Source: Betaproteobacteria bacterium
GTDB taxonomy: Bacteria; Pseudomonadota; Gammaproteobacteria; Burkholderiales; SG8-41
Assembly (NCBI GenBank): GCA_016192825.1
Contig: JACPTK010000025.1
Span: forward strand, 3,912-67,911
Direction: 5' to 3'
Length of the DNA stretch: 64,000 bases
In this document: piece by piece, positions 1,569 through 45,342 of the stretch
Layout of the letters: each line of letters begins with the position of its first letter
How positions within the stretch are numbered: the first letter of the stretch is position 1
Notes under the pieces: model-generated
Told to the model about the DNA's origin: nothing
Databases searched by the model: none
Seen by the model: only the letters and a program-made list of their open reading frames with translations
Translations under genes and position numbers: made by a program

Positions 1569-2873
<1,305 letters not shown>

Positions 2874-6846: not shown

Positions 6847-7443
6847 TCAGACTGCGCGATGCTTGCCGATTTTCCAGCCGTGCGCGGCGATGTGCTTCTC
6901 CGCGACTTCGGCCGGCTCTTCCTCGAGCGGCGTCGCCATCGTGTCGTTGAACCGGTTCATGAAGCCGAAATAGGCGATCAATGCCACGATTTCCACGATT
7001 TCGCCTTCGGACCAATGCTGCTTCATCCGGGTGAACAGCTCGTCGGTGACGTCGTTGGGCTGTGATGCGGCCGCGATCGCGAATTCGAGCGCCACGCGCT
7101 CGCGCTCGTCGAACAGCGGGCTCGACCTGAACTCCCAGACCGCCTCGAGCTTTTCTTCCTTGATGCCAGACCGGAGCGACCCTCCGGCATTGTGGGCCAT
7201 TCAGTAATGGCATCCGTGAGTGCGCGCGGCGACATAGGCCAGCAGGCGCTTGAAGCCCACGCCGACCTCTCCCTGGGGATCGAACACGGCGCCGTTCAGC
7301 GCGCGCACGGCCCGCAGGATCTTCGGCTTGCGCTGGAGGATGAGCTGGCTGTTGGGTATGTAGTGGCCGGAAGCCCTGATCTGCTCGAACATGTCGTTCA
7401 GTTCGGGTACCGAGCCAACCGGCAACGGCGCGAGGCGGGTCAT
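6847..7443 (-). CDS. AhpD/carboxymuconolactone-decarboxylase (CMD)-like protein with in-frame TGA read as selenocysteine (CxxU), copy A
   Basis: ORFs 7201..7443 and 6847..7200 are in the same frame, separated only by the TGA at 7201-7203. The joined sequence reads '...ARTHGCHY-U-MAHNAGG...'. The 198-residue product aligns end to end with the Cys paralogue at 38125..38721 ('AAGCRY-C-TAHNAEN'). The RBS is AAGGA. A hairpin lies downstream of the TGA. Confidence 0.85.
7163..7190 (-). promoter_or_regulatory. Candidate bacterial SECIS hairpin for CMD-like copy A
   Basis: The mRNA reads UGA AUGGCCCACA AUGCC-GGAG GGUCG CUCC-GG UCU GGCAU. The core stem is CCGGAG/CUCCGG with apical loop GGUCG. The loop begins 19 nt after the UGA. 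Confidence 0.6.
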
Positions 7444-7470: not shown

Positions 7471-8712
7471 TCATGTCTTGCGGCGCTCGTGCCGGGACTC
7501 GGCGAGACCGTCCGCCACGAACCGCGGAACGAGGCTCAGCCTGCCGAGCGGCTTGAGCGACTCGTCATCGCTTTTCAGGCAGATATCCCGGATCGCCAGG
7601 AATGCCCTCGCCGCGGCCGTCTCGCGCCAGAACCAGTTCTCGATGGCCTTCGCCGCGAGATTCCCCGGTTGCGCCGCGACGGCCTCGTAGTAGTACGCCT
7701 TGACGTCGTCGCATGCTCGTTTCACGGCCAACCCGGCAGACAACCCGGCAACGGGCGGTGGCCTGGTCGCGCCATCGAGACAGGATGCGACATACCGCGC
7801 GGCCTCCTCTACCGTCGCCCCGAACACGCCCACGGTCGTGCGTCCCCGCCGTTTTCGTGCAAGGTCGTACCACGGTGCCAGCCGGGCAATTTCTTCGCGC
7901 AGGGCGTGGGCAAGCCCGCCCGCCTCCGCCTTCATGGAAGCGAAGCTGACGGGGCATGCGAAACCGCTCTCCTGGTCACCCGACGCCGGAGCATCCTCCG
8001 GAAAATCCTCCAGCACCGGACCTGCGGAGCGCTCGAACAGCGACAGCAGGGCACTCAAGACCCTGCGCTGGAATTGCGGCTCGTTCGGCGCCCCGAACGG
8101 CCGCCCGAGCATGAACGGCACCCACAGCGCCCGGGGCGGCTTGATGGCCGCGGTCTGTTCCCGGATCAGGCTGATCTGGGCCGTCGGAACGCCCTCCCGC
8201 TCGATGTAGTGGCCGAGTGCGCCCACGGCGCACGTGCAGTTGGGTCAGACAGGGGTCAGCAACACCGCGTCGACGCGATCCTTCTTGAGCAGCGCGGCGA
8301 GTTCCCGGGCCTTGGGCTCGAGCGCGCGGATCGGGGCGGCCCCCATGAACGCATAGTGAAAATCCGAAACCGCTCCGATCGCGCCGTCGGCCTTGAGCTC
8401 CCGCAGTCGCCCGAGCGGAAACACGACGTTAATATCTTCCTGGAAGCCGCTGCGATCGAAGTTGACCGACGAGTGGCTCATGATCAGGTCGCCGGCGGGC
8501 GTTTCCCCGGGAATGACACGGTAGTCCGTCGCCCCGATCTCGAACGGCCGGTCGCCGCGCACGTGCACCCCCGACGTCGTGACGATGGCCACGCGGCGAT
8601 CGCGCAGCAGCGGTCCCGCCGCGAAGGGCGTCCCGCCGAAGTCGGGCAGGTCCCGGATCTTGTCCAGGTGGTGCTTTTGCTCGGATGCGGAAAAATCGGT
8701 CAATCGGGCCAT
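7471..8712 (-). CDS. GrdB/PrdB-family (glycine/sarcosine/betaine/proline reductase component B-like) protein with in-frame TGA read as selenocysteine
   Basis: ORFs 8245..8712 and 7471..8226 are in frame. Between them the sequence reads 'LLTPV-U-PNCTCAVGALGHY', with the TGA at 8245-8247. The combined product is 413 residues. The N-terminal part 'SGVHVRGDRPFE...DINVVFPLGRLRELKADGAIG' and the C-terminal part 'EREGVPTAQISLIRE' resemble the selenoprotein B family. Confidence 0.8.
8217..8233 (-). promoter_or_regulatory. Candidate SECIS hairpin for the GrdB-like gene
   Basis: The mRNA reads UGA CCCAACUGCAC GUGCGCC GUG GGCGCAC. The 7-bp perfect stem starts 12 nt after the UGA. The loop contains GU. 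Confidence 0.6.
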
Positions 8713-8755: not shown

Positions 8756-9370
8756 TCAGCGGCGGTGCTTGCCGACGCTCCAGCCGGACTTTGCGAGATG
8801 TTTCTCGCCCACTTCGACCGGCTCCTCCTCGAGCGGGGTCGCCATGGTGTCGTTCCAGCGATTCAAGAAGCCGAACATCGCCACGACACCCGCGATCTCC
8901 ACGATCTGGTTCTCGGTCCAGTGCCGCTTCATCTTGGCGAAGAGTTCGTCGGTCACGTTGTTGGGCTGGGCGGCCGCCGCGATCGAAAACTCGAGCGCAA
9001 CCCGCTCCTTTTCGTCGAACAACAGGCTCGTGCGAAATTCCCATACCGCTTCGAGCTTCTTTTCGTCAATTCCGAGCCGGAGCGCCGCCCCGGCGGTGTG
9101 AGCCATTCAGTAGTGGCAGCCGTGAGCCTTGCTCGCCACGTGGGCGAGCAGCCGCCTGAAGCCGACCGGCACCTCGCCCTGCGGGTCCCAGACCGCCGCC
9201 GAGAGTTGCGAGAAGGCCTTCACCAGCTTCGGCTTGCGCTGCATGATGAGCAAGCTGTTCGGCACAAATCCCAGAGATTTCACGCTGGACTGGAACGCAT
9301 CCTTTAGCTCCGGGTCGGCGTCCTGCGGCAGCGCCGCCAGCCGCGGCCCGGGTCTCGGCCGTTGATTCAT
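8756..9370 (-). CDS. AhpD/CMD-like protein with in-frame TGA read as selenocysteine (CxxU), copy B
   Basis: ORFs 9107..9370 and 8756..9106 are in frame across the TGA at 9107-9109. The joined sequence reads '...SKAHGCHY-U-MAHTAGA...'. It is a paralogue of copy A and of the Cys form at 38125..38721. A strong RBS (AGGAGGAG) lies upstream of the ATG at 9370. Confidence 0.85.
9076..9094 (-). promoter_or_regulatory. Candidate SECIS hairpin for CMD-like copy B
   Basis: The mRNA reads GCCGGGG CGGCG CUCCGGC. It has the same position and architecture as copy A: 6-7 bp stem and 5-nt loop. An A-U pair in copy A is replaced here by a G.U pair. Confidence 0.5.
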
Positions 9371-9399: not shown

Positions 9400-9927
9400 C
9401 TACGCTTCACCGCGCGCCGGGTAGTTCTTGGAAACGACAAAATCGATCGCGCTCAGGATTTCGTTGAAGTGCGGCCGGGCAAACGGCATCGTCGAATACG
9501 ACGCCCAGTATAGTGTCGCGTCCGGCTTGACCAGGAACAGTCCCGGCTCGGCGAACAGCGGCGGCTCCTCGATCCCTGCCGAGGTCATGCCGCGGCCGGT
9601 GGAAACGTACAGCCCCCACTGGCGCGCGGATTCGATCGAAACACCGTAGCCGACCGTCAGATTCGGCAAGCCCCACTGCGTCTTCGCCTGCTCGGCACGC
9701 TCCTTTACATCCGTGCTGGTGACGAGCGTGGACACGCCGCGCTTGTCGAACTCCCCGATCAGGCCGTTCAGTTCGCTCGTGTACTTGCGGCACACCGGGC
9801 AGTGCAGGCCGCGGTAGAAAACAATCATTGAAAAGTTCTGCGGTTTCTGGGCGAAAAGCTTCCAGCGTCCGCCGCCGAGGGTTTCCACTTCGAGCGCGGG
9901 AACAGATTTACGGGGCATGAGCGACAT
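9400..9927 (-). CDS. Peroxiredoxin-like (AhpC/TSA-family, thioredoxin-fold) protein
   Basis: 175-aa ORF with 'FYRGLHCPVCRKY' (CxxC in a redoxin context). It lies 29 nt upstream of CMD-like copy B on the same strand. Confidence 0.75.
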   Translation of the reverse strand: MSLMPRKSVPALEVETLGGGRWKLFAQKPQNFSMIVFYRGLHCPVCRKYTSELNGLIGEFDKRGVSTLVTSTDVKERAEQAKTQWGLPNLTVGYGVSIESARQWGLYVSTGRGMTSAGIEEPPLFAEPGLFLVKPDATLYWASYSTMPFARPHFNEILSAIDFVVSKNYPARGEA

Positions 9928-10450: not shown

Positions 10451-11035
10451 TCAGCGATCGAGGCAGCGCAGCATCACCGATTGGATGTCCTCGAGCGCCG
10501 CGCGATCGGGGTTGGCCTTCCCGACCAGCCGCAGGCCCTGGATGCCGGCCACGAGAAAGCGCGCGATCGCGTCGACATCCGCGGTCTTCGCGATCTCGCC
10601 GCGTGATTGCGCGCGCACCAGCGCATCGCGAAATGTCGCCTCGATGCGCTCGAGGCTGCGGCGCACCCGGGCCGCCGTCGCCCGGTCCTGCCGTGCAAGC
10701 TCGGCGGCGCAATTGCCGATGAAACATCCGATCCTGCCCGAACCGGTGACAATGTTCTCGACGAGATTACCCACGAAATCCGCCACCGCCTGCTGAATCG
10801 GCACCGGCCGCGACAGCGCTGCGGTGATGCGCGCGATGCCCTGCTCCTCGTAACGGCTGAGCGACTGGTGCAGCAGTGAGCGCTTTCCGCCGAAGGCTGC
10901 GTAGAGGCTGGACCGGCTGAGCCCAGTCGCCGCGCACAGGTCGTCCAATGACGTCGCTCTGAAGCCCTTCGCCCAGAACGCCTGCATTGCACGTTCGAGC
11001 ACAGCATCCGAATCGAACTCGCGGGGTCGGGCCAT
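10451..11035 (-). CDS. TetR/AcrR-family transcriptional regulator
   Basis: 194-aa ORF with the N-terminal HTH 'AMQAFWAKGFRATSLDDLCAATGLSRSSLYAAFGGKR'. Confidence 0.85.
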   Translation of the reverse strand: MARPREFDSDAVLERAMQAFWAKGFRATSLDDLCAATGLSRSSLYAAFGGKRSLLHQSLSRYEEQGIARITAALSRPVPIQQAVADFVGNLVENIVTGSGRIGCFIGNCAAELARQDRATAARVRRSLERIEATFRDALVRAQSRGEIAKTADVDAIARFLVAGIQGLRLVGKANPDRAALEDIQSVMLRCLDR

Positions 11036-11655: not shown

Positions 11656-11727
11656 GGCGGGGTGGCAGAGCGTAATGCCGTGGTCTGCAAAGCCACGTTC
11701 GGTGGTTCAAATCCACCCCCCGCCTCC
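11656..11727 (+). tRNA. tRNA-Cys (anticodon GCA)
   Basis: Hand-folded cloverleaf. Acceptor stem GGCGGGG/CCCCGCC, anticodon stem GTGGT/GCCAC with loop CTGCAAA, T arm GGTGG-TTCAAAT-CCACC, discriminator T. Confidence 0.8.
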
Positions 11728-12077: not shown

Positions 12078-14555
12078 ATGAATCTCCCGACGGCCTATCA
12101 GCCCATCGCGTGTGTGGGGACCCTGACGGCCTGCCTTGTTCTGGCTCTAAGCAGCATTAACGCGCCTGCGGCGAAACCTCCAGCGGAAAAGGAGTCGAAT
12201 CGGGAAGCGCGGGGCAGCCTGGCTCATTCGAACCGGTTGATCCATTCGAATTCGCCCTACCTGCTCAGCCATGCCCACAATCCGGTCGACTGGTATCCGT
12301 GGGGGCCGGAGGCTCTCGAAAAAGCCAAACGCGAAAACAAGCTGATTTTCCTCTCCGTCGGCTACAGCACCTGCTACTGGTGCCATGTGGCCGAGAGAAC
12401 GATTTATTCAAAGCCCGAATTCGCAAGATGGATGAATGCGTGGTTCGTCAATATCAAGGTGGACCGCGAACAGCGGCCCGACCTGGACCGCATCTACATG
12501 CTGGCAACCCAGATCATGACCGGCCGCGGCGGCTGGCCGAACAACCTGTTTCTGACACCCGACCTGAGGCCGGTGTTCGCCGGCAGCTACTTCCCACCGC
12601 ACGACGATGACTTCGGAAGAACTGGATTTTCCACGATACTCAGGACGCTGCATCAAACCTGGACCACTGATCGAAAGCGCCTGACCGATATCGGGGAACG
12701 GGTCCACGCTTCGTTACGGGATTACCAGCAGCGAAGCACGAGCGGCACGCAGCGCGCATTGAATCCGGGCGAATGGCTCACCGCGGCGGCGACATCGTTA
12801 ATAGCCCGCGCCGACAGAAAACATGGAGGCCTCGCGTCGAGCGGTTCCACGAAGTTCCCGCGCGCACCCGCGCTCGAGCTGCTGCTCGCGCACTACCGGA
12901 TTCACCGCGACCGCGCGTCGTTGGATCTGCTCACTCAGCACCTGGACGCCATGGCGTATGGCGGAATCTACGATCATCTCGCCGGCGGATTTCACCGGTA
13001 CACCGTCGAGCCGAGCTGGTCCATCCCACACTTCGAGAAGATGCTGTACGACAACGCCCAGCTGATGAAAATCTACGCCGAAGCGTTTGCCATCACGAGG
13101 AATCCGCTGTATCGGTTCGTCGCGGAGGACGTGGCCGCCTATTTGGCCCGACAAATGATGGCCGGTGGCGGCGGCTTCTACACCGCGCAGGACTCCGAGG
13201 TAAAGGGCAAGGAAGGTGCCAGCTATGTCTGGACCCGGACGGAGATCGTTTCGATCCTGCGCGGCAAGTCAGCCGAACGGTTTTTCGATATTTTCGCGCT
13301 CACGCCCATGCCGGCGAACGTCGTCGCGGAGAGTCTCGAGACGAAGCCGTCAGCGGAAGAAGAAGGCGTGATCCGGTTCCGGCTGCCGGTCGCGGAAACC
13401 CTCAAGCGGGCGCGATCTGCGGACGTCGTGACGCTGCTGGCCGGCACGCGGCCCCTGCGGCAGGAGCTCCTCCTGGCGCGCGACCGGCGTCCCCAGCCTC
13501 TGCGCGACGACAAGATCATCGTGGGGCTCAACGGTCTCGCCATCGAAGCGTTCACCGAGGCGGGGCGCATTCTCGGCAACCAAGAGTACATCTCGATCGC
13601 CCGGCGTTCCGCGGAATACATCTGGGCGGTCGCCTATAGCGCCAAGTCCGAAAGCCTCAAGCACGAAATCTTCCAGGGGCGCGTGCAGACCGACGGATTT
13701 CTCGACGATTACGCCCTACTCGGTCGCGCTTACATCTCGCTGTACGGCGCCACGCGGCAGCAGGTGTGGCTCGACCGCGCAGTGAAGCTTGGCGATACGC
13801 TGTTGAAACGATTCGCGCGGCCCGACGGGGCGCTACTGACGAGCACGAGCGGAAAAGACCTGCTGATCACGCCGCTGGACGACGGGGACAATGCCCAGCC
13901 GTCCGGAACGTCCGCAGCCGTCGAACTCCTGCTCCGTCTCGCGAAGACCGGCGGCAAGACGGGATACGCCGAGGCCGCCGCGAAAATCGTGCAGCGCCTG
14001 GGCGGGCAACTAGACGCCCAGCCGCACGGGTGGAGCACCCTCGTGGTTGCGGCGAACGCGAACAAGTTTGAGCCCTCGATTGCTGCGTTGGGTGGACCTG
14101 GCTCCGCGAGCGTCCAAGCGGGCGGACTGCCGGACTTTCGTCCCCCGGTTACCGCCGATCACGTAAGGGTCCGCGCGACCGCCAGCTCAGCGGACGACTT
14201 TTATCGGATCGAGATCACGCTCGATATCGACCGCGGATATCACGTCAACGCCAATCCTGCGTCGTTTCCCTACCTGGTTCCCACCAACGTGTCGCTCGAC
14301 GGAATCACGCCGATTTCAGTCGATTACCCCAGGCCGATAACGTTCAAGCCCAATTTCGCGCGCGACGGCATCAAGGTGTATGAGGGGAAGCCGACGATCG
14401 CGGTAAGGGTCGCAAAGAAAGAGCTCCCGAAGACAGGAAGTCTGCGAGCGAGGGTAACCGCCCAAGCGTGCGACGACCAGGTTTGCCTGCCGCCGTCCGA
14501 GTTTCCTTTGAGCATCGATCCGCCGGACGCGCGCACGGGCGCGGCCCTCAAATGA
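12078..14555 (+). CDS. Thioredoxin-domain (DUF255/YyaL-like) protein with a C-terminal DsbD-N-like domain
   Basis: 825-aa ORF with a signal peptide. It has '[37 protein letters not shown]' followed by a six-hairpin-glycosidase-like middle region. The C-terminus '[15 protein letters not shown]' is typical of the DsbD alpha domain. Confidence 0.8.
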
Positions 14556-15234
14556 CGGGCACACCGACCTGGCACCTGATCGCGGCGTGCCAGGCCTCCA
14601 CATCGAAACCGGGCGAACCGACGATCGTGCGATAAACAACGACGCCGTTCTCGTCGAGCAGGTAGAGCCGGTCCGGCAGCGCGGCGTACAGGCGGTCCAC
14701 CTCGTTCGACATGTTGTCCAGCAGCATCGGCATCCTGAGATTCAGGCGAAGCACGCAGACCTGCGCGATCTCCTCCCGCCCCTCGAGCGATTTCGGCTGT
14801 TCGTAAAGCACATTGTCGACCAGATTTCGCGCCGACTGCCGTCCGTCCGTCGGATGCGCCTCCTGAATGTAAACGCAATAAAACTGAACGCGGTTCCGGA
14901 ATTCCTCGTATATCTCGTTCAGGCGCACGGCCTGCTCCCGGAACGGCGGTCACGTGTACGAGCCAAAGACCAGGGCGACGGGTTTCCCACGCGTTGACGA
15001 CAGCCGGAATTTTTCTCCCGATCGCTTGCCCGCGGGCGTCAGGCGATCGATCTCGAAATCGGGAGCGGACTGCCCTACCTGCGGCGCGGCATGGTCGCGC
15101 GCCGCCCGTTCGCTGACCATCGATTCGTAGTACGCGAGGTATTCCTCCCGGCTGCGCCCCATTCGCTCCCATCGATCCGGCGAAAGCGTGTCGGGATGCG
15201 CGTACGAGGTTCCAAGCCAGCCCAGGTTCGTCAT
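14548..15234 (-). CDS. Iodothyronine-deiodinase-like thioredoxin-fold protein with in-frame TGA read as selenocysteine
   Basis: ORFs 14950..15333 and 14548..14928 are in frame. The junction reads '[22 protein letters not shown]', with the TGA at 14950-14952. GS.TUPPF is the deiodinase active-site signature. The start ATG at 15234 has an AAGGAG RBS. Confidence 0.82.
14920..14934 (-). promoter_or_regulatory. Candidate SECIS hairpin for the deiodinase-like gene
   Basis: The mRNA reads UGA CCGCCGUUCCGGGAG CAGGC CGUGC GCCUG. It has a 5-bp stem and a GU-containing loop that begins 21 nt after the UGA. Confidence 0.5.
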
Positions 15235-15506
15235 GCAATGCTCCTTCTGAGGTTGCCGGTTGCGTGCTGCGAGCCGCAAGTCTCGCCACCGGCGGCAATC
15301 CGACACGCCGCTCGCGGCCCGCAGGTGGCACAAGCATAGAGCGGCCCGGGCAGGATTGACAACCCTGCAAGGGCCCGGACGGCACCGGCTGGCGTCAGTC
15401 AGTCCGCAGATGAATACTTACGCGCGCGGCACCAGGAACCGTAATAGCGTGCGTTCGGGCGCGACTATTGAGAACGGGTTCACGCGGGAACGCAGAAGGA
15501 GAATCG

Positions 15507-16733
15507 ATGCCAAGCCAGAGAATCACCTTTGCCGGCGCAAACGGCGCAGATCTCGCCGCGCGCATGGACCTGCCGTTGGGGAAGGCGCGCGCCTACGCCA
15601 TTTTCGCGCACTGCTTTACCTGCTCGAAGGACACCAGGGCCGCGAATTACGTGAGCGCCGCCCTCGCCGAGCAGGGAATCTCCACGCTGCGTTTCGACTT
15701 TACCGGCCTGGGCGGCAGCGGCGGAGACTTTGCCAACACGAATTTCTCGTCCAACGTTGCGGACCTCGTCGCCGCGGCCGAGTACCTGCGCGCCAACCAC
15801 GGCGCACCCGAAATCCTCATTGGGCACAGCCTGGGCGGGGCCGCCGTGCTCGCGGCTGCGCCAAGGATCGCGGACGCGCGCGCCGTCGCCACCCTCAACG
15901 CGCCCTTCGATCCGGCGCACGTGCTCGACATGATCGCGGGGACGCGCGCGGAAATCGAGGCGACGGGCGAAGCCGAGGTGACGCTCGGGGGGCGCCTCTT
16001 CCGCATCAAGAAGCAGTTCATCGAGGATATCGAGCAGCACCGGCTCACCGGGGAAATAAGGCGGATGAAAAAAGCGCTCCTGGTAATGCACGCGCCGCTC
16101 GACTCGACCGTCAATATCGACAATGCCGCGCAGATTTTTCTTGCGGCGCGGCATCCGAAGAGCTTCGTGTCGCTTGATGGAGCGGATCATTTGCTCTCGC
16201 GCCGCGACGACGCGGTGTACGCAGGCTCGGTGCTGGCCGCCTGGGCCGCGCGCTACATCTCGCGCCCCCTGTCGGACGCAGCGGATTTGCCGCGGGCGGC
16301 ACCCGGAGAGGTGGTCGTCGTGGAAGCCGGGACCGGGAAGTTCGAGCAGACGATCAGCGCGGGACGCCACCGGCTGCGGGCGGACGAGCCCGTTACGGCG
16401 GGTGGCAACGACAGCGGACCATCGCCCTACGATCTGCTGCTGGCCGGCCTTGGCGCGTGCACTTCCATGACCCTCCGCATGTATGCGGCGCAGAAGCAGT
16501 GGCCGCTGGCCGGCGTATCCGTGAAGCTCTCGCATGCCAAGGTCCACGCCCAGGACTGCGCCGAGTGCGATACCCGGACGGGAAAGATCGATCGCATCGA
16601 GCGCGAGATCACCCTCCAGGGCGACCTGGGTGCCGCTCAGCGCGAAAAACTTCTGCAAATTGCCGACAAGTGTCCAGTCCATCGCACGCTGACTTCGGAA
16701 GTCCGGATCGCAACGCGGCTGTCCGACGTTTGA
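15507..16733 (+). CDS. Bifunctional alpha/beta hydrolase / OsmC-family protein
   Basis: The N-terminal half has the 'GHSLGG' nucleophile elbow. The C-terminal half has 'PSPYDLLLAGLGACTSMTL...CPVHRTL' (OsmC/Ohr fold). A GAAGGAG RBS precedes the ATG at 15507. Confidence 0.8.
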   Translation: MPSQRITFAGANGADLAARMDLPLGKARAYAIFAHCFTCSKDTRAANYVSAALAEQGISTLRFDFTGLGGSGGDFANTNFSSNVADLVAAAEYLRANHGAPEILIGHSLGGAAVLAAAPRIADARAVATLNAPFDPAHVLDMIAGTRAEIEATGEAEVTLGGRLFRIKKQFIEDIEQHRLTGEIRRMKKALLVMHAPLDSTVNIDNAAQIFLAARHPKSFVSLDGADHLLSRRDDAVYAGSVLAAWAARYISRPLSDAADLPRAAPGEVVVVEAGTGKFEQTISAGRHRLRADEPVTAGGNDSGPSPYDLLLAGLGACTSMTLRMYAAQKQWPLAGVSVKLSHAKVHAQDCAECDTRTGKIDRIEREITLQGDLGAAQREKLLQIADKCPVHRTLTSEVRIATRLSDV

Positions 16734-17309: not shown

Positions 17310-19574
17310 CTAACGCAATATCATCAGTGGTGCGAGCCGCTCACTCCGAGGCAGCACCCGGCCGACGATCGCGGCGGCGGGATAACCCAGGGCCTTCAGC
17401 TCCGCCACGCAGGCGGCAGCCCGGTCCCCCGGCACCGCCGCCAGGAGCCCGCCGGCCGTCTGCGGGTCGAACAGCAGCGGAAAGCGGGGATCGGTCATGA
17501 CGCTTTCAAGATTTTCAACGGCTCTTCGCAAGCGGACGTTCTGGGGCTGCAGCGAGCTGAAAATTCCCGCCGCGACCATGTCGAGCGCGCCATCGAGAAA
17601 AGGAATGGCGTTCAGGTCCAGGGCAATGTCCACGTCCGACTGCCTGATCATCTCCACCAGATGACCGATGAGGCCGAATCCGGTGACATCAGTGCAGGCG
17701 CTGGCCCGAAACCGGTGCAGGCAGCGCGCCGCCTCGCGGGAGGAGAGCAGCATGCTGTCGAGGGCGGCCTCGATCCACCGCCCTTTTGCCTTGTGACGCA
17801 TGGCGGCGGCGAACAGCGTGCCGGTCCCGACGGGCTTGGTGAGGAGCAACGTGTCTCGCGGCGCCATGGGACCTTTGCGCAGGAGATCTTTCTCCGCGGC
17901 CGTCCCGTTGATCGCGAAACCCAGCCCCAGCTCGGCCCCCTCGCCGGTATGTCCACCCACCAGCGCGGCGCCAGCGCCATCCAGAATGCGCAAGGCGCCG
18001 GACATCATCTGGAACAGGTCGTCTTCCATTTTCGTTTCGAGGCCGTAGGGCACGGTGGCTATCGCCAGCGCCGTCTGCGGCTCGGCGCCCATGGCGAAGA
18101 TATCACCGAGGCTGTGGTTGGCCGCGATCTGTCCGAAAAGGTAGGGATCGTCGATCATGGTCCGAAAAAAATCGACTGTGTGGACCATGACCCTGCCCTC
18201 GGGCACGCGAACGACGGCGGCGTCATCGGGCGCGTCCAGGCCGATGAGGACGTCCTTGGAAGCGCCGGGACGCAGGCGCCCGATCACGCGCGAAAGCACG
18301 GTGTGGCCCACCTTGGCGCCGCATCCTCCGCAACGGCTCGCCATGACCGAGAGTTCCTTGAGCGCCTCGGGCCCCGCCAGTCCGGGCGCCGGCGCCGCCG
18401 CCGGGGCTTCCGCCATCTCCGGGAGGTCGCCAAACTGCTTCATGAAGCGGCGGTCGATCCAGTCCTTGAGCCGCCACACGGCCGCGCCTTCCATGGCCCA
18501 GCCCCAGCGCGAGGCGACGGCACGGCGGTCGCCGACGGAAATCAGCGACAGGAAATGCTTCTGGGGCCTGAAGGGCAGCGGCGGCTGGCCGAGCAGGACC
18601 CGGCGCAGGTTCTCGGCGAGCGGCTGGCCCTGGCGAACCGCGAACACGCCCGCCTTGGGACGAGGATGCCCTGCCACGCTGGCGACGTCCCCCGCGGCGA
18701 ACACGGCGGGGTCCGTCACGCTCTGCAGCGTGTCGCGAACCCGGACAAAGCCGCTGTCGTCGCACTCGAGTCCGGTTGTCCGCAACCACGGAGCCGCCCC
18801 CGCCTGGGTCACCCACAGGACCTCGTCGAAAGGCATTTCCTCTCCGTCCGCGCACAACAATCGTCCGGATTTCACTTCGATGACTTCGCGGTCGGTGTAA
18901 ACGTCCACGCCCCGTTCCTTGAGTAGGCGCATCAGGATGCGACGGGCACCGGAGGCGTAGGCTGGAAGGATCTTCCCCATCGTTACCAGCCCGACGTTCA
19001 CCAGGCCGGGATCGCGCCCCGCCGCCGCAACCTCTTTCCGTAACCGGTACTGGACGGCGAACGCGAGTTCCACCCCGGCGGCGCCGCCGCCCACCACGCC
19101 CACCCGGGTGGGACCCACCCGCTGCAATACGCGCGCCACCAGCTGCTCCCAGCGCCCGATCAGGCGATCGATGGGCTTCACTCCCGTGGCGTAGAGCGAT
19201 GCCCCCGGCACATCGTCCTGCCGCGGCCGCGACCCGATATCGATGGACGCTACGTCGTAGCGCACCGCGGGCCGGCCGGAGCACAGCACTTGTTTCGCGC
19301 CGAGATCGAGGCCCGTGGCCTCATCGTGATAGAGCCGCGCGCCGGCGAAGCCGGCCAGCCGGCGCAGGTCGATATGACACTGCCCGCGGCTGTAGTGGCC
19401 GGAGACGAAACCGGGCAACATCCCCGAGTACGGCGCGTCGATGTCGCGGGTGACGAGCGTCAGCCGTACCCCGGGCATCGGCCGCATGCCGAAGCGCTTG
19501 AGGACCAGAACGTGAGCGTGGCCGCCGCCGACCAGCACCAGGTCCTTGATGACGGGGCCGGCATTCGAATTCAT
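17310..19574 (-). CDS. selD: Fusion of a pyridine-nucleotide-disulfide oxidoreductase (TIGR03169 'N-terminal to SelD' type) with selenide, water dikinase SelD
   Basis: 754-aa product. The N-terminal part has 'DLVLVGGGHAHVLVLK...GAAGVELAF...AGDVA' (NDH-2-like flavoprotein). The C-terminal part has 'CGGCGAKVG...DAAVVR...VDFFRTMIDDPYLFGQIAANHSLGDIFAMGA...GGHT' (SelD/AIR-synthase fold, Cys form). The ATG at 19574 overlaps the upstream stop (ATGA). Confidence 0.9.
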   Translation of the reverse strand: MNSNAGPVIKDLVLVGGGHAHVLVLKRFGMRPMPGVRLTLVTRDIDAPYSGMLPGFVSGHYSRGQCHIDLRRLAGFAGARLYHDEATGLDLGAKQVLCSGRPAVRYDVASIDIGSRPRQDDVPGASLYATGVKPIDRLIGRWEQLVARVLQRVGPTRVGVVGGGAAGVELAFAVQYRLRKEVAAAGRDPGLVNVGLVTMGKILPAYASGARRILMRLLKERGVDVYTDREVIEVKSGRLLCADGEEMPFDEVLWVTQAGAAPWLRTTGLECDDSGFVRVRDTLQSVTDPAVFAAGDVASVAGHPRPKAGVFAVRQGQPLAENLRRVLLGQPPLPFRPQKHFLSLISVGDRRAVASRWGWAMEGAAVWRLKDWIDRRFMKQFGDLPEMAEAPAAAPAPGLAGPEALKELSVMASRCGGCGAKVGHTVLSRVIGRLRPGASKDVLIGLDAPDDAAVVRVPEGRVMVHTVDFFRTMIDDPYLFGQIAANHSLGDIFAMGAEPQTALAIATVPYGLETKMEDDLFQMMSGALRILDGAGAALVGGHTGEGAELGLGFAINGTAAEKDLLRKGPMAPRDTLLLTKPVGTGTLFAAAMRHKAKGRWIEAALDSMLLSSREAARCLHRFRASACTDVTGFGLIGHLVEMIRQSDVDIALDLNAIPFLDGALDMVAAGIFSSLQPQNVRLRRAVENLESVMTDPRFPLLFDPQTAGGLLAAVPGDRAAACVAELKALGYPAAAIVGRVLPRSERLAPLMILR

Positions 19575-20503: not shown

Positions 20504-20842
20504 TCACTTTCCGGATTCGTTTACATCCATTATCTTGCCGCTGCCTGGATAGACCCAATCCTGGCGCCGGCTCATCAGGGCCCGTAAATCCATCCGGATT
20601 TCCTCCGCCGTCGGCCGCCCCACGAACCACCAGCCGTTATAGATCTTGTAGATCGTTCGATCTCGGTCGAGAACGAACGTGTAGGGAATGTAGATTTCCC
20701 CATGCGCCTTGTCCGTTGTATCGACCATTTCCAGTTCGTGAAGCAGCTTGCGGTCGGGGTCCATCAGGAATGGCCAGTCGGCGCCCAACGCGTCCCGGAC
20801 CTCGCTCGTGTTCATCTTGTCGTCCACGGACACGCTGACCAT
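20504..20842 (-). pseudogene. Redoxin/peroxiredoxin-like protein, C-terminal two-thirds only
   Basis: It starts within the conserved '...VSVSVDD' strand. It continues 'WPFLMDPDRKLLHELEMV...YTFVLDRDRTIYKIYNG'. The N-terminal ~60 residues with the catalytic Cys are absent, and the upstream frame is non-coding. Confidence 0.5.
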
Positions 20843-20887
20843 CTTGCAATAATTTACGCGGAATGCTGGACCGCAGTGTTGACAAAG

Positions 20888-21070
20888 TTGTCAGCGCAGC
20901 GAGCTTCGGCTGCTGCGGCGTGCCGCGGCGGATGCTGACGGCCTGCTCGTCGGTCAATCCGGCCTTCTTGCCAAGGAGGGTGTGCGCGGCGAGGCAATAG
21001 TTGCAGCCATGGATGTATTGAGCGGCATATTGCGGTCCGTGCACCTGGGCGGCGGCGTCTATTTCCGTTG
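20888..21070 (-). pseudogene. CMD/AhpD-like gene fragment (Cys form)
   Basis: 'YIHGCNYCLAAHTLLGKKAGLTDEQAVSIRRGTPQQPKLAAL' carries the CxxC..H motif. It lacks both ends and abuts other remnants. Confidence 0.45.
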
Positions 21071-21400
21071 CGAATTCGATCGCGACCACCCGCATCCGCT
21101 GGTGGCCGCCTTGCCTTCCCTGATCCATATCCGCGGCACCGACAGTCACGATTTCGCCTGGCTGCAGACCGCAATCCATTTCATGATCAAAGAAACCAGG
21201 ACGGCGAAGCCGGGGGCTGAGGCAGTCGTCAATCGCCTGGCGGAAGTGCTGTTCGTTCAAATGGTGCGAGCCCACATCGCGCAAATCGCCGGCACGGGAC
21301 CCGGCGCTTATCGCCGCGATCCCTCGCGTTTGCTGGTGAAGTCCGATCCGCGCAAGAGTTCCGGGCAAGACGCAGTTCATGCGCCCTATCGCTTCGGACC
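21009..21400 (+). pseudogene. AraC-family regulator N-terminal (cupin-type) remnant
   Basis: It has 'MDVLSGILRSVHLGGGVYFRCEF' and 'VVNRLAEVLFVQMVRAHI', typical of AraC_binding_2-type regulators. The cupin core is shortened and no intact HTH domain follows. Confidence 0.45.
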
Positions 21401-26969: not shown

Positions 26970-28250
26970 ATGAGTCTGTGCTTTCCCGCACTCATTGGCA
27001 TCCTTGCTGTCGCGCTCGCCGCCTGCGGCGACACGGCAAAACCCACAACGCCGGTGAAATCCCCGGCGCAAGCCGCCGCCGTCCAGCTTCCCGCTCCGGA
27101 AATCGAGAAGTTTCTGGATGCCCACTGGGCGCGTCCGATCGCGCCCCAGGGCAAGCCCCCGGCCCGCTTCACTTCCATTGAAGCCGCGCTCGACCCGGAC
27201 TCCTGCGGTAGCTGTCACGTCGCGCAATTCAAGGATTGGAAGGAAAGCCTCCACAGTCGGGCGATGGGCCCCGGCATCCTCGGGCAACTGGTCAATATGT
27301 CACCCGACGCCACGAACGAGCATCAGGATTGCATCCGTTGCCACGCCCCGCTCAAGGAACAAGCCGACAGCCTCGTTGCCGCGCTTGCCCGCGAGCAGGG
27401 CCCTGGTTCCCGTCCTGCGAAGGATTCCGGGCTCGCGCTGCATGAACAGGGACTCGTCTGCGCCGCATGTCACGTGCGTGGCTATCAACGGTATGGGCCG
27501 CCGCGCAAGGACGGATCGGTGCCGGATTCCGCCGCACAGCTTCCGCACAACGGTTGGGTCAGCACCGCAGCGTTCGAAGATTCACGCTTTTGTGCTTCCT
27601 GTCACCAGTTTCCAAAAGACGGCTTCGCCCTGAATGGCAAGCTGCTCGAAAACACCTACGAAGAATGGAAGGCGAGCCGTTACGCGCGCGAAGGCAAGGC
27701 CTGCCAGTCGTGCCACATGCCGGACCGCCGGCACTTGTGGCGCGGGATTCACGACCCCGAGATGGTGAAGGCAGGCGTGGCCATTGACGTGAAGCCGGCT
27801 CGCATCCAGTCAGGCGTTGTGTCGGCCACGCTTACCATCAAGAACACCGGGACCGGACACTACTTCCCCACCTACGTCACCCCTAAAGTGGTGGCGGAAA
27901 CCTACCAGGAGAGCGCGGGAGGGCAAGTGCTGAAAGACACGCTGCGCGAATACATCATCGCCAGGCAGGTATCGCCCGATTTGAGCGCGGAAATTGCCGA
28001 CACCCGAATCGCGCCAGACGAGCAGGCGCTGCTCGACTATCGGGTTCGCCTGCATCGGGACGCGGCGTCGCTGGTATATCGGGTCAGGGTAGAACCGGAC
28101 GCTTTTTATACCGGTCTTTACCGCTCGCTGTTGGCCGGAAAGCAGGCTGGTAAAGGTGAGCGATTGATCGCGCAGGCGTTGAAGGATTCCACGGCGTCAG
28201 CGTTCACGCTGTATTTGCACCGCCAGCCACTGCGAGCTGCCGCGCGCTAA
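26970..28250 (+). CDS. Multihaem c-type cytochrome lipoprotein (five CxxCH motifs)
   Basis: The lipobox is 'LAVALAACGD'. The haem motifs are CGSCH, CIRCH, CAACH, CASCH and CQSCH. Confidence 0.8.
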   Translation: MSLCFPALIGILAVALAACGDTAKPTTPVKSPAQAAAVQLPAPEIEKFLDAHWARPIAPQGKPPARFTSIEAALDPDSCGSCHVAQFKDWKESLHSRAMGPGILGQLVNMSPDATNEHQDCIRCHAPLKEQADSLVAALAREQGPGSRPAKDSGLALHEQGLVCAACHVRGYQRYGPPRKDGSVPDSAAQLPHNGWVSTAAFEDSRFCASCHQFPKDGFALNGKLLENTYEEWKASRYAREGKACQSCHMPDRRHLWRGIHDPEMVKAGVAIDVKPARIQSGVVSATLTIKNTGTGHYFPTYVTPKVVAETYQESAGGQVLKDTLREYIIARQVSPDLSAEIADTRIAPDEQALLDYRVRLHRDAASLVYRVRVEPDAFYTGLYRSLLAGKQAGKGERLIAQALKDSTASAFTLYLHRQPLRAAAR

Positions 28251-29338
28251 TGATTCAGCGACGCCTCGATTTCGGCGAAGGTCTGGACGATGTCCCCGAC
28301 GTGGACCGGCACGCCGAGTTGCCGCGCGATCCGGGAAGTAGAGAATAGACCGCGGACCGCCTGGCAGGAATCGCCCTCCTTTGGTTCCACCACCATCGCG
28401 TGCTGCCGCCGCGCGCGCCTGAGGGTAGCGATAATCTGTCCCACACTGGCGTCAAGCACATCGCGCAGCTGGATGACCTCCAGCATCTCGTGGGGCGTCA
28501 TGATGTCGCGTACTGGGATCTCGCTGTGCTTCACGCCCCTTTCCTGTACGATCTGCATCGGCTTTTCGCCGGGAATGTCGCTTGCCGTGACGATCCCGAG
28601 CACGATATCCGGGCTTTCCACGACCAGCAACAGGCGAATGCCGTTCTCGATCATTTTCCGGTTCGCACCGTCAATGGCCGCCCCGGGATCGATCGTGACG
28701 GCGGCCACCCGCTTGAAATCGGTCACGTCGAGGATCGAGTGAACGTCCTCGTCCCCCTCGATTCCGAGAATTGAGGCTCCGAGAATCTTTTGGGTTTCCG
28801 CATCCACCAGTATCTTCATAAAACCCCGGATCTCGCTGCGCTCCCGGGCGCGGCCCACGCGGGTCATCAGCATCTTGCCGACGAGCGCTTTCCGGCCGGA
28901 AGCGCGGACTTCCGTTTCGGTCGTCCCCGCGCGACCGAGGGGCGGGTCAATATAGAGGGCGTAAGCCGTGACGCGGTCCGTCACCTTGCGGCGGTCACCG
29001 TCGAACAGGTTGGCGGCGATGATCTCGTAATCGTTATAGGAAGTGTGGGTGAAGGCGCCGCGACCGTTGACGTCGCCCAGCGCCCAGACGCCCGGAACAC
29101 TGGTGCGAAGTTCGTCGTCCACGACGACGAAGCCCCGCGCATCCGTATTGACGCCCGCCTGATCGAGGCCAAGGTCATCCGTGTTGGGCACGCGCCCCAC
29201 GGCGATCAGCAGGTGCGAGCCGATGACCTCGTCGGGAGCGGTGTCGCACGTCACTTTCACCGCCACCCGATCGCCGCGCTTTCCCACGCTCACGCACCGG
29301 GCGTTCAAACGCACTTCAACGCCTTCGGCCTCCAGCAT
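28247..29338 (-). CDS. Chimeric protein: N-terminally truncated pyridine-nucleotide-disulfide oxidoreductase fused to a CBS-domain pair
   Basis: It starts at 'MLEAEGVEVRL' with a perfect AAGGAG RBS. It lacks the FAD-binding GxGxxG and the redox CxxxxC. It retains 'GVWALGDVNG' and part of the dimerisation domain ('FMKILVDAETQKILGASILGIEGDE'). It then switches to two CBS-like repeats ('IENGIRLLLVVES...IVTASDI', 'HAMVVEPKEG...GLFSTSRI'). Confidence 0.6.
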   Translation of the reverse strand: MLEAEGVEVRLNARCVSVGKRGDRVAVKVTCDTAPDEVIGSHLLIAVGRVPNTDDLGLDQAGVNTDARGFVVVDDELRTSVPGVWALGDVNGRGAFTHTSYNDYEIIAANLFDGDRRKVTDRVTAYALYIDPPLGRAGTTETEVRASGRKALVGKMLMTRVGRARERSEIRGFMKILVDAETQKILGASILGIEGDEDVHSILDVTDFKRVAAVTIDPGAAIDGANRKMIENGIRLLLVVESPDIVLGIVTASDIPGEKPMQIVQERGVKHSEIPVRDIMTPHEMLEVIQLRDVLDASVGQIIATLRRARRQHAMVVEPKEGDSCQAVRGLFSTSRIARQLGVPVHVGDIVQTFAEIEASLNH

Positions 29339-29738: not shown

Positions 29739-30023
29739 ATGCAAAAGATTCAACAGAAATCGCTGGTCAAGTCCCTGGTTTCCACCGGAATTCTGGCGCT
29801 CGCCATGAGCGCCCCCGCCGCGGTCGCCGCAAACCCGTGCAATCCGTGCGCGGCCAAGCCCACGGCATCGAAGGCGGGCGCCAATCCGTGCGCGGCGAAG
29901 AACCCGTGCGCCGCCAAGAACCCCTGCGCCGTGAAGACAACTAGCGCAAAAAAGAAGACGGCAAACCCTTGCGCCGCGAAGAATCCCTGCGCCGCAAAGA
30001 ACCCGTGCGCGGCCAAGAAGTAA
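29739..30023 (+). CDS. Small secreted protein made of NPCAAK hexapeptide repeats
   Basis: RBS is GAGAGGAGA. The signal peptide is '...ALAMSAPAAVA'. The mature part contains 8 Cys, all within N-P-C (ANPCNPCAAK..ANPCAAKNPCAAKNPCA...ANPCAAKNPCAAKNPCAAKK). Confidence 0.7.
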   Translation: MQKIQQKSLVKSLVSTGILALAMSAPAAVAANPCNPCAAKPTASKAGANPCAAKNPCAAKNPCAVKTTSAKKKTANPCAAKNPCAAKNPCAAKK

Positions 30024-45332: not shown

Positions 45333-45342
45333 TCACTGGAGA

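What the first reader, a model, noticed from the sequence alone, without database searches (positions are those of the whole stretch)
6847..7443. AhpD/CMD-like CxxU selenoprotein pair with a Cys-containing paralogue in the same window
The split ORF pairs 7201..7443 + 6847..7200 and 9107..9370 + 8756..9106 each join across a single TGA. The products are 198 and 204 residues.

The intact paralogue at 38125..38721 (198 aa) aligns along its full length and has Cys exactly where the TGA sits (GCHY-U-MAHNAG versus GCRY-C-TAHNAE).

A Sec/Cys paralogue pair is the classic criterion for a genuine selenoprotein. The downstream hairpins of the two Sec copies are at the same position and have the same shape, with an A-U to G.U change between them.
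Basis: seen in the sequence. Interest (0 to 1): 0.75.

Follow-up and report, generated by a model that had tools for sequence, protein, structure and literature searches.

The report
Two AhpD-like selenocysteine genes, confirmed
Two "broken" genes in an uncultured soil or groundwater betaproteobacterium are each one intact gene whose internal UGA almost certainly encodes selenocysteine, and they belong to a selenoprotein family known since 2005, so the call is right but ordinary.

Summary

- **The genes.** Both minus-strand genes (7443..6847 and 9370..8756) are CMD/AhpD-fold proteins with a C-x-x-U motif.
- **Sec/Cys pairing.** All 120 best full-length database homologues carry Cys at the UGA column.
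- **Conservation.** The same UGA occurs in 117 stretches of species-representative genomes. All titled hits but a few look like uncultured Betaproteobacteria or Burkholderiales.
- **The hairpin.**
  - A 7-bp hairpin 12 nt after the UGA meets the published bacterial SECIS model.
  - It shows a compensatory C-G to U-A change in 31 distinct sequences.
  - It is held in place at synonymous sites: the Leu codon is CTC in 108 of 108.
  - It is absent from 99 Cys-form genes, and a syntenic 85%-identical Cys orthologue has lost it.
- **Other selenium genes in the window.** A PrdB-like gene (UGA 8245..8247) lies between the two. A deiodinase-like gene has its UGA at 14950..14952. An Ndh-SelD fusion is also present.
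- **Gap.** selA, selB and tRNA-Sec were not found in the window.
- **Status.** AhpD-like CxxU selenoproteins are a curated family, so this is a new member of a known kind. Its nearest solved relative is the debrominase Bmp8, and the substrate is unknown.

The parts
6847..7443 (-). AhpD/CMD-like selenoprotein gene 1 (198 aa; C78-H-Y-U81-M-A-H84)
   Evidence: Translation. PF02627 CMD scores 41.3 bits against a cut-off of 23. Best PDB relative is Bmp8 6OHI, E=5.6e-23.
7201..7203 (-). In-frame TGA read as Sec81 of gene 1
   Evidence: Aligns with Cys in 120 of 120 homologues.
7170..7188 (-). SECIS-like hairpin of gene 1: GCCGGAG-GGUCG-CUCCGGU, stem at positions 16-22/28-34 counted from the U of UGA
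   Evidence: Fold (-12.0 kcal/mol for the hairpin alone). Covariation and conservation. Absent from Cys forms.
8756..9370 (-). AhpD/CMD-like selenoprotein gene 2 (204 aa; GCHY-U-MAHTAG)
   Evidence: Translation. PF02627 43.7 bits. TIGR01926 79.6 bits, just under the cut-off of 81.8.
9107..9109 (-). In-frame TGA read as Sec of gene 2
9076..9094 (-). SECIS-like hairpin of gene 2: GCCGGGG-CGGCG-CUCCGGC
   Evidence: (-14.0 kcal/mol).
7471..8712 (-). PrdB/GrdB-like selenoprotein gene (413 aa; TPV-U-PNCTC) between the two AhpD-like genes. TGA at 8245..8247, hairpin at 8217..8233.
   Evidence: TGA present in 30 of 30 homologues in fetched loci. Cys form P0221. Most close database relatives are C-terminal fragments of about 245-251 aa cut at the TGA.
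9400..9927 (-). Thioredoxin-fold Prx-like protein with a CPVC motif, first gene of the tight cluster, 29 nt upstream of gene 2
   Evidence: PF00578 AhpC-TSA 45.3 bits. Weak match to SelL-related redox protein. Sequence.
10451..11035 (-). TetR-family regulator, recurrent neighbour of the cluster
   Evidence: Pfam. Synteny in 30 loci.
38125..38721 (-). Cys-containing paralogue (GCRY-C-TAH) beside the ArsS arsenosugar cluster
   Evidence: Only 3 of the 7 hairpin pairs can form.
17310..19574 (-). Ndh-SelD fusion (selenophosphate synthetase, CGGC active-site motif). It would supply the selenium donor.
   Evidence: Pfam. TIGR00476 selD 290.5 bits against a cut-off of 125, and TIGR03169 491 bits against 310. 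Sequence.

Best explanation
Each split ORF pair is one gene for a ~200-residue CMD/AhpD-fold thiol-selenol oxidoreductase.

**Decoding (comparatively supported, not yet shown experimentally).** During translation the in-frame UGA is read as selenocysteine. A 7-bp hairpin with a 5-nt loop starts 12 nt after the UGA and has a G in the first two loop positions. It acts as a bacterial SECIS and recruits SelB carrying Sec-tRNA(Sec). Selenophosphate would come from the Ndh-SelD fusion encoded 10 kb away.

**Chemistry (inferred from homology).** Sec81 replaces the second Cys of the C-x-x-C-x-x-H redox motif. It is inferred to be the attacking nucleophile and to form a selenenylsulfide with Cys78, which a partner then reduces.

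**Context (shown).** The two genes sit in a tightly spaced cluster behind a TetR regulator. The order is a Prx-like CxxC protein, AhpD-like(U), PrdB-like(U), AhpD-like(U).

**Role (inferred).** The most likely role is a selenium-boosted reductive detoxification or redox relay. The substrate could be a peroxide or peroxiredoxin disulfide, or another electrophile. It is not known.
For: **Sec/Cys pairing.**
- All 120 best full-length homologues have Cys at the UGA column, as does the in-window paralogue.

**Conservation.**
- 121 Sec-form genes (including the two in the window) lie in 117 stretches of species-representative genomes. Nearly all ORFs continue 114-121 codons past the UGA.

**SECIS hairpin.**
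- 96.6% of pair cells are paired, against 29-62% when the partner column is slid.
- Pair 18-32 is C-G in 71 distinct sequences and U-A in 31, with 6 non-pairs. None of 500 shuffles reaches the observed value.
- The U-A state couples a synonymous Ala change (GCC to GCU) with an Arg-to-Gln change (CGG to CAG).

**Synonymous-site constraint, seen only in Sec forms.**

| Site | Sec forms | Cys forms |
|---|---|---|
| Leu codon | CTC 108 of 108 | CTG 46, CTT 14, CTC 11, TTG 10 |
| Arg codon | CGG 61, CGC 1 | CGC 16, CGG 5 |
| Hairpin pairs formed | 7 of 7 in 86 of 108 | 3 or 4 of 7 in 79 of 99; never 7 |

**Natural experiment.**
- The syntenic Cys orthologue (85% identical) keeps the 5' arm.
- Its 3' arm has changed from CTC CGG to CTG AAG.
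- Hairpin stability drops from -12.0 to -2.2 kcal/mol.

**SECIS model.**
- All four criteria of the published model are met. The criteria are in PMC13188914; the measurements are.

**TGA is a normal stop here.**
- Most Pfam-complete genes in the window end in TGA.

**Selenium context in the window.**
- SelD is present.
- Two further in-frame TGAs fall at the canonical Sec sites of PrdB-like and deiodinase-like genes.

**Fold and motif.**
- PF02627 passes its cut-off.
- Gene 1 shares 29% identity over 178 residues with Bmp8, which has the same GC-x-Y-C-x-x-H motif.
Against: - No selA, selB or tRNA-Sec was found in the 64-kb window or in the flanks of the Sec-form loci. Sec competence of this genome is therefore inferred, not shown.
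- Folding each window hairpin alone gives no significant stability against shuffles (z = -0.7 and -1.0). The support is comparative only.
- Nine of the 108 distinct Sec-form sequences carry a G-G mismatch at pair 19-31.
- Both proteins score below the curated cut-offs of TIGR01926 and NF053654.
- There is no experimental evidence of selenium incorporation and none on the substrate.
Confidence: 0.86

Rival explanations
1. The TGAs are pseudogene lesions or sequencing or assembly errors in ordinary CxxC genes.
For: Gene callers in public assemblies split each gene into two ORFs.
Against: The same TGA is present in 121 genes from over 100 species-level genomes, with an intact downstream frame. 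It is also present in five independent assemblies identical to the window. Both halves have coding-type GC3. A hairpin specific to the Sec forms is conserved.
Confidence: 0.01
2. The UGA terminates translation and the ATG that follows it (UGA-AUG) restarts it, giving two separate polypeptides of 80 and 117 residues that assemble.
For: The codon after the UGA is ATG in almost all Sec forms. The stop-start arrangement resembles translational coupling.
Against: Met follows the Cys in the single-chain Cys forms too (CMAH in nearly all of the 120), so it is a family residue and not a start signal. The split would cut the C-x-x-C-x-x-H redox motif in two. No Shine-Dalgarno sequence precedes the internal ATG. 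The hairpin sits where a SECIS is expected and is lost when UGA becomes UGC.
Confidence: 0.03
3. The UGA is read through without selenocysteine, either by near-cognate suppression or a reassigned code inserting Trp, Cys or Gly, with the hairpin acting only as a read-through stimulator.
For: The Sec machinery (selA, selB, selC) was not seen in the window.
Against: TGA is the commonest genuine stop in the window, so the code is not reassigned. The hairpin matches the SECIS model in loop G, spacing and size. SelD is encoded nearby. All four in-frame UGAs in the window fall on redox Cys/Sec positions of known selenoprotein families.
Confidence: 0.05
4. The genes do encode Sec, but the proteins are not peroxide or peroxiredoxin reductases. 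They are either Bmp8-type reductive dehalogenases or reductases serving the neighbouring arsenosugar (ArsS) pathway.
For: Bmp8 is by far the closest solved relative (E=5.6e-23, against about 1e-4 for true AhpD). Bmp8 dehalogenates by oxidising its cysteines (PMC5577590). ArsS lies within 8 kb of the Sec-form gene in 14 loci. The ArsS cluster is contiguous with the TetR-PrdB-AhpD operon on a 4.02-Mb relative contig. A deiodinase-like selenoprotein gene is in the same window.
Against: No halogenase or other bmp-type gene was seen among the neighbours scanned. Identity to Bmp8 is only 29%. In the window a Prx-like CxxC gene is the immediate upstream neighbour, although it accompanies few of the homologous loci. 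Only 14 of 49 Sec-form genes with enough flank have the PrdB-like neighbour, so the contexts vary.
Confidence: 0.2

Closest known systems
AhpD-like selenoprotein family (COG2128 / TIGR01926, CxxU), described from Sargasso Sea and GOS metagenomes
   Same: CMD/AhpD fold. Sec is the second residue of the CxxC-derived motif. Cys homologues greatly outnumber Sec forms. The SECIS is a small hairpin with a loop G just downstream of the UGA. A neighbouring Prx-like gene has been reported (PMC1088965, PMC2398784, PMC13188914).
   Different: The window proteins score just below the TIGR01926 cut-off (64.3 and 79.6 against 81.8). They come from uncultured Betaproteobacteria or Burkholderiales MAGs rather than marine reads. 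Two paralogous Sec copies flank a PrdB-like selenoprotein gene in one cluster.
Bmp8 tetrabromopyrrole debrominase (PDB 6OHI/6OHJ)
   Same: Closest solved structure by sequence: E=5.6e-23 and 29% identity over 178 residues. It has the same GC-x-Y-C-x-x-H motif and the same C-terminal NRWN region.
   Different: Bmp8 uses Cys, not Sec. It belongs to a bromopyrrole biosynthetic cluster, of which nothing was seen here.
AhpD alkylhydroperoxidase (for example PDB 6E8L, 6K40), the reductant of peroxiredoxin AhpC
   Same: CMD fold and a CxxC redox centre. An AhpC/TSA-family gene lies next door.
   Different: Sequence similarity is weak (E about 1e-4). From my own knowledge of M. tuberculosis AhpD, not tested here, its motif spacing is CxxCxxxH, whereas these proteins have CxxUxxH.
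NF053654 YciW-related (seleno)protein and NF041238 AhpD-related CFYUT (seleno)protein (NCBIfam)
   Same: Curated CMD-family models that already allow for Sec. NF053654 is the best NCBIfam hit for gene 1.
   Different: The scores of 90.1 and 68.4 bits are far below the cut-off of 310. These are sister groups, and the window proteins are not members.
Bacterial SECIS consensus model (bSECISearch model; E. coli fdhF type)
   Same: Loop of 3-9 nt, stem of at least 4 bp, G in the first two loop positions, 16-37 nt between UGA and loop, MFE at or below -7.5 kcal/mol. All are met.
   Different: There is no sequence resemblance to fdhF. No bulged U was seen, and the stem is a plain 7-bp helix.

Membership tests
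Bacterial selenoprotein gene (Sec-UGA plus bSECIS) | In-frame UGA aligned with a conserved Cys in homologues | tested here: met
   120 of 120 homologues have Cys at that column, as does the in-window paralogue and the syntenic Cys orthologue.
Bacterial selenoprotein gene (Sec-UGA plus bSECIS) | UGA-containing orthologues in other organisms, with a conserved downstream frame | tested here: met
   117 stretches and 121 genes.
Bacterial selenoprotein gene (Sec-UGA plus bSECIS) | bSECIS: apical loop of 3-9 nt and upper stem of 4-16 bp | tested here: met
   7-bp stem with a 5-nt loop. Copy 2 can also fold as 8 bp with a 3-nt loop. Criteria from PMC13188914.
Bacterial selenoprotein gene (Sec-UGA plus bSECIS) | bSECIS: G in the first two loop positions, usually followed by G or U | tested here: met
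   The loops are GGUCG and CGGCG. All 108 distinct sequences have a G at loop position 1 or 2.
Bacterial selenoprotein gene (Sec-UGA plus bSECIS) | bSECIS: 16-37 nt between the UGA and the apical loop | tested here: met
   The loop starts at position 23 counted from the U of UGA, which leaves 19 nt between.
Bacterial selenoprotein gene (Sec-UGA plus bSECIS) | bSECIS: MFE at or below -7.5 kcal/mol | tested here: met
   -12.0 and -14.0 kcal/mol for the hairpins alone.
Bacterial selenoprotein gene (Sec-UGA plus bSECIS) | Selenophosphate synthetase SelD in the genome | tested here: met
   Ndh-SelD fusion at 19574..17310. TIGR00476 scores 290.5 bits against a cut-off of 125.
Bacterial selenoprotein gene (Sec-UGA plus bSECIS) | SelA, SelB and tRNA-Sec in the same genome | not testable with these tools
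   None in the window and none in the Sec-form loci. SelB fragments do exist in Burkholderiales MAGs and at the end of a Cys-form locus, L203. The rest of this genome could not be reached.
Bacterial selenoprotein gene (Sec-UGA plus bSECIS) | Selenium actually incorporated at the UGA | not testable with these tools
   Needs 75Se labelling, mass spectrometry or a reporter assay.
AhpD-like selenoprotein family (CMD fold, CxxU) | CMD domain PF02627 above the gathering score | tested here: met
   41.3 and 43.7 bits against a cut-off of 23.
AhpD-like selenoprotein family (CMD fold, CxxU) | CxxU motif at the family's CxxC redox centre | tested here: met
   GCHY-U-MAH aligned with GC-x-Y-C-MAH.
AhpD-like selenoprotein family (CMD fold, CxxU) | TIGR01926 (peroxid_rel) score above the curated cut-off | tested here: not met
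   64.3 and 79.6 bits against a cut-off of 81.8. The proteins are near-members or a sister clade.
Bmp8-type debrominase | Full-length homology with the conserved C-x-x-C-x-x-H motif | tested here: met
   E=5.6e-23, 29% identity.
Bmp8-type debrominase | Bromopyrrole biosynthetic gene context (halogenase and the other bmp genes) | tested here: not met
   No such domains among the neighbours or the larger window ORFs.
D-proline reductase PrdB (for the middle gene) | TIGR04483 score above the cut-off, and a PrdA partner | tested here: not met
   102.9 bits against a cut-off of 300. No PrdA-like neighbour. The UxxC Sec site is conserved. The gene is PrdB-like and is not PrdB.

The most novel reading that the evidence does not exclude
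The two AhpD-like CxxU proteins and the PrdB-like UxxC protein may form a dedicated, TetR-controlled three-selenoprotein module in a lineage of uncultured Burkholderiales.

Its real job would not be peroxide removal. It would be selenol-driven reductive chemistry on unusual electrophiles. One option is Bmp8-like or deiodinase-like dehalogenation. The other is reduction of pentavalent organoarsenicals for the adjacent ArsS arsenosugar pathway.

In this reading the CxxU proteins would act as carrier or reductant for the PrdB-like enzyme, much as GrdA serves GrdB.
Probability: 0.12. Interest if true: 0.6.

Novelty: new member of a known kind. Interest (0 to 1): 0.3.

Why it matters
Public gene calls split each of these genes into two "hypothetical" fragments. 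Recognising them corrects the annotation across more than a hundred MAG species.

It also shows that a widespread, uncultured soil and groundwater Burkholderiales lineage invests heavily in selenium. One 64-kb window holds four Sec genes and an Ndh-SelD fusion.

The matched Sec and Cys orthologues, with the hairpin present in one and lost in the other, give a clean natural example of how a SECIS is gained or lost along with the UGA.

The kinship to the debrominase Bmp8 and the recurrent link to the arsenosugar cluster give testable leads to a function for a large family that is still annotated only as "peroxidase-related".

Tried and rejected
- **Rfam.** The gathering-threshold scan of the window found only tRNA-Cys, with no SECIS or tRNA-Sec family hit.
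- **ARAGORN.**
  - It found no tRNA-Sec in the window or in about 125 loci.
  - Its 95-nt "tRNA-Ala" at 2165..2259 lies inside ribBA and has no Rfam support, so I treat it as a false positive.
- **Single-sequence folding.** Z-scores for the two hairpins were not significant, so thermodynamics alone is not evidence here.
- **Sec machinery.**
  - E. coli SelA and SelB (taken) were searched by tblastn against the window and all loci. The only hit was a SelB C-terminus at the end of L203, which is a Cys-form locus.
  - A database search with that fragment found SelB pieces in Burkholderiales MAGs. None could be tied to a genome carrying the Sec forms.
- **Other split-ORF leads.**
  - The truncated Pyr_redox ORF at 28247..29338 has no in-frame upstream half.
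  - The TGA at 40045 is a true stop followed by an in-frame gene.
  - The Prx-like fragment at 20504..20842 has no in-frame N-terminal half.
- **Promoter and terminator scan.** The scan of the cluster gave nothing above shuffled expectation.
- **PDB search with the PrdB-like protein.** The sequence search found nothing.
- **Bmp8 structure paper.** It could not be retrieved by DOI.
- **Structure prediction.** Not run, because the full-length sequence hit to 6OHI already fixes the fold.

Full report
**Observation.**

On the minus strand, 7443..6847 translates as one frame interrupted only by the TGA at 7201..7203. It gives 80 + U + 117 = 198 residues. Likewise 9370..8756 is interrupted only by the TGA at 9107..9109 and gives 87 + U + 116 = 204 residues.

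Both genes have a purine-rich ribosome-binding sequence before the ATG. All four half-ORFs have the high GC3 and low GC2 signature of real genes in this 64% G+C window. The two products are 66% identical to each other. Copy 1 is 44% identical to the uninterrupted 198-residue paralogue at 38721..38125. That paralogue aligns end to end and has Cys exactly at the TGA column.

**What the proteins are.**

All three match the carboxymuconolactone decarboxylase/AhpD domain PF02627 above its gathering score. In NCBIfam the best hits are NF053654 "YciW-related (seleno)protein" and TIGR01926 "peroxidase-related enzyme". Every hit is below its curated cut-off, and copy 2 misses TIGR01926 by about 2 bits.

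Against solved structures the clear best match is the tetrabromopyrrole debrominase Bmp8 (6OHI). The E-value is 5.6e-23, with 29% identity over 178 residues and the same GC-x-Y-C-x-x-H motif. Genuine AhpD entries reach only about 1e-4.

**Sec/Cys test.**

A search of about 5.8 billion proteins returned 1265 homologues. The best 120 are all full-length proteins of roughly 200 residues (194-261), and every one has C-x-x-C with Cys at the UGA column. The closest, at 82-86% identity, read GC[FQY]YCMAHN.

One of these, P0003, sits at the same chromosomal position as gene 1, between the PrdB-like gene and xseB-ispA-dxs. It is therefore a true orthologue that carries TGC.

**Conservation of the UGA.**

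I scanned one genome per species (185,579 species) for the pattern GGNTGYNNNTAYTGAANNGCNCAYAMNGCNGG. It matched 117 stretches. The 80 record titles that were printed are almost all uncultured Betaproteobacteria or Burkholderiales MAGs. A few carry clearly odd taxonomic labels.

Together with the window this gives 121 Sec-form genes. In nearly all of them the frame continues for 114-121 codons past the UGA. The nearest genome is MERD01000124.1 (Betaproteobacteria bacterium RIFCSPLOWO2_02_FULL_67_26). It is 86% identical in DNA and has the same arrangement of two AhpD-like copies with a PrdB-like gene between them. Five independent Logan assemblies are 100% identical to the window across the locus. 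Assembly error and pseudogene decay are therefore excluded.

**The hairpin.**

Counting the U of UGA as position 1, positions 16-22 pair with 28-34 around a 5-nt loop. The loop is GGUCG in copy 1 and CGGCG in copy 2.

Across 108 distinct Sec-form sequences, 96.6% of pair cells are standard pairs. When the 3' partner is slid by 1-3 columns, only 29-62% pair. Pair 18-32 is C-G in 71 sequences and U-A in 31, with 6 non-pairs. None of 500 column shuffles reaches the observed number of two-sided changes.

That covariation links a synonymous change in an Ala codon (GCC to GCU) to an Arg-to-Gln change (CGG to CAG). Protein-level selection alone does not predict this link.

Synonymous sites are frozen in the Sec forms. 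As a control I scanned metagenomes with the same pattern but with TGY in place of TGA, which gave 99 distinct Cys-form sequences.

| Feature | Sec forms (108 distinct) | Cys forms (99 distinct) |
|---|---|---|
| Leu codon in the 3' arm | CTC 108 of 108 | CTG 46, CTT 14, CTC 11, TTG 10 |
| Arg codon | CGG 61, CGC 1 | CGC 16, CGG 5 |
| Hairpin pairs formed | 7 of 7 in 86 | 3 or 4 of 7 in 79; never 7 |

The syntenic Cys orthologue keeps an identical 5' arm, but its 3' arm has changed from CTC CGG to CTG AAG. Hairpin stability falls from -12.0 to -2.2 kcal/mol.

The published bacterial SECIS model requires four things:
- a loop of 3-9 nt with a stem of 4-16 bp;
- a G in the first two loop positions;
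- 16-37 nt between the UGA and the loop;
- an MFE at or below -7.5 kcal/mol (PMC13188914).

Both hairpins satisfy all four. One caveat applies. Folded in isolation, neither hairpin is more stable than shuffled GC-rich sequence (z = -0.7 and -1.0). The evidence is comparative and not thermodynamic.

**Surroundings.**

- The gene at 8712..7471 has an in-frame TGA at 8245..8247 (TPV-U-PNCTC). It matches the region of GrdB and PrdB just before their Sec residue.
- All 30 homologues in the fetched loci have TGA at that column. They also share a strongly conserved hairpin, GUGCGCC-GUG-GGCGCAC.
- A 50%-identical Cys form exists (P0221, APV-C-LLC).
- More than 100 database clusters are C-terminal fragments of 232-259 residues, produced because gene callers stopped at the UGA.

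The gene order is TetR (11035..10451), a Prx-like CPVC protein (9927..9400), AhpD-like(U), PrdB-like(U), AhpD-like(U), then xseB-ispA-dxs. The gaps within the cluster are only 27-43 nt.
- Of 49 Sec-form AhpD-like genes with enough flanking sequence, 14 have the PrdB-like gene immediately adjacent on the same strand.
- TetR was found in 30 of the 123 loci compared.

Elsewhere in the window there are three further selenium-related features:
- A deiodinase-like gene (15234..14548) has TGA at 14950..14952 in the canonical FGSYT-U-PPF site.
- An Ndh-SelD fusion (19574..17310) has the CxxC motif reported for such fusions (PMC2398784).
- An ArsS arsenosugar cluster lies beside the Cys paralogue.

In a relative's 4.02-Mb contig, the ArsS cluster and the TetR-PrdB(U)-AhpD(U) operon are directly adjacent.

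TGA is the commonest true stop in the window, so the genetic code is standard.

**What is missing.**

No selA, selB or tRNA-Sec is present in the window or in any fetched Sec-form locus. SelB fragments do occur in Burkholderiales MAGs, and one lies about 7 kb from a Cys-form gene. I could not tie them to this genome. Sec competence is therefore inferred from three things: four independent UGA-at-Cys genes, their SECIS-like hairpins, and SelD.

**Mechanism.**

- *Comparatively supported:* UGA recoding to Sec by a coding-region SECIS hairpin.
- *Inferred from homology:* Sec81 is the nucleophile of a C-x-x-U redox centre on a CMD fold and cycles through a selenenylsulfide with Cys78.
- *Unknown:* the substrate.

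In the window, the adjacent Prx-like thioredoxin-fold protein favours an AhpD-type peroxide or peroxiredoxin relay. That neighbour accompanies few of the homologous loci, so the support is weak. The much closer kinship to Bmp8 keeps other reductive chemistries open. So does the recurrent link to the ArsS cluster.

**Comparison and novelty.**

AhpD-like CxxU proteins were among the first metagenome-predicted bacterial selenoproteins.
- 27 sequences were reported from the Sargasso Sea (PMC1088965).
- 299 AhpD-like 1 and 70 AhpD-like 2 sequences were reported from GOS (PMC2398784).
- The family is listed in a current review and in BSepDB (PMC13188914 and PMC13326102).
- PrdB-like and deiodinase-like selenoproteins, Ndh-SelD fusions and Prx-like/AhpD-like gene pairs are all reported there as well.

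I found no paper describing the AhpD(U)-PrdB-like(U)-AhpD(U) operon or its link to ArsS.

**Verdict.** This is a genuine, well-supported call and a new member of a known kind. Its general interest is low to moderate.

Noticed in passing
window 7471..8712 (-), TGA 8245..8247, hairpin 8217..8233: A third selenoprotein gene lies between the two AhpD-like genes. It is PrdB/GrdB-like (TPV-U-PNCTC, 413 aa). The TGA is conserved in 30 of 30 homologues, a Cys form exists (P0221), and the SECIS-like hairpin is strongly conserved. Public gene calls split it into 155-aa and ~250-aa pieces.
   Followed up: yes
window 14548..15234 (-), TGA 14950..14952: A fourth selenoprotein candidate. It is a deiodinase-like protein with the canonical FGSYT-U-PPF site, a good RBS and a possible hairpin CAGGC-CGUGC-GCCUG about 20 nt after the UGA. 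It matches PF00837 and NF038285 (the latter below cut-off). No comparative check was done.
   Followed up: partly
window 17310..19574 (-): An Ndh-SelD fusion: a pyridine nucleotide-disulfide oxidoreductase domain joined to selenophosphate synthetase, with a CGGC active-site motif. It passes the TIGR00476 and TIGR03169 cut-offs.
   Followed up: partly
window 39082..47673 (+); also L248 919..8754, L013, L050, L092 and others: An arsenosugar-type cluster. It contains ArsS (radical SAM, Cys form of a family that can contain Sec), a PHO4 transporter, a DedA/VTT-flavoprotein disulfide reductase fusion, DUF547, and the TIGR04283 and TIGR04282 transferases. It lies beside the Cys paralogue. In many related genomes it is directly adjacent to the TetR-PrdB(U)-AhpD(U) operon.
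   Followed up: partly
window 11656..11727 (+); L247 9895..9967: A tRNA-Cys(GCA) gene is a recurrent neighbour of the TetR/AhpD-like locus, and was also seen in four of the genome loci. This may be plain synteny.
   Followed up: no
window 2165..2259 (+): ARAGORN calls a 95-nt "tRNA-Ala(tgc)" inside the ribBA coding region on the opposite strand. Rfam does not support it, so it is probably a false positive.
   Followed up: no
window 29886..30776: Several short arrays of an 18-bp tandem repeat (consensus about AACCCGTGCGCAGCGAAA, 3-6 copies each) lie in a region with no called ORF. They sit next to a 5'-truncated flavoprotein disulfide reductase plus CBS gene (28247..29338).
   Followed up: partly
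window 20504..21128 (-): A Prx-like C-terminal fragment (20504..20842) lies next to, and out of frame with, a further CMD-type ORF carrying GCNYCLAAH (from about 21128). They look like degraded or frameshifted redox genes.
   Followed up: partly
L003 1..1270 (JGI 3300025324): A 98.5%-identical strain variant has gene 1 preceded by a PLP-dependent enzyme gene on the other strand instead of the PrdB-like and second AhpD-like genes. The cluster content therefore varies between close strains.
   Followed up: partly
window 12078..16733 (+): More thiol-redox genes lie nearby: a DUF255 thioredoxin-like plus DsbD_N protein (825 aa) and an alpha/beta-hydrolase-OsmC fusion (421 aa). OsmC-like proteins are another family with known Sec forms, but this one is uninterrupted.
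   Followed up: no
L203 13254..13760 (-): A SelB C-terminal (SECIS-binding) fragment sits at the end of a metagenome contig, about 7 kb from a Cys-form AhpD-like gene.
   Followed up: partly
window 56656..58035 (-): A 459-residue ORF with a very strong coding signature (GC3 0.90) has no Pfam match.
   Followed up: no
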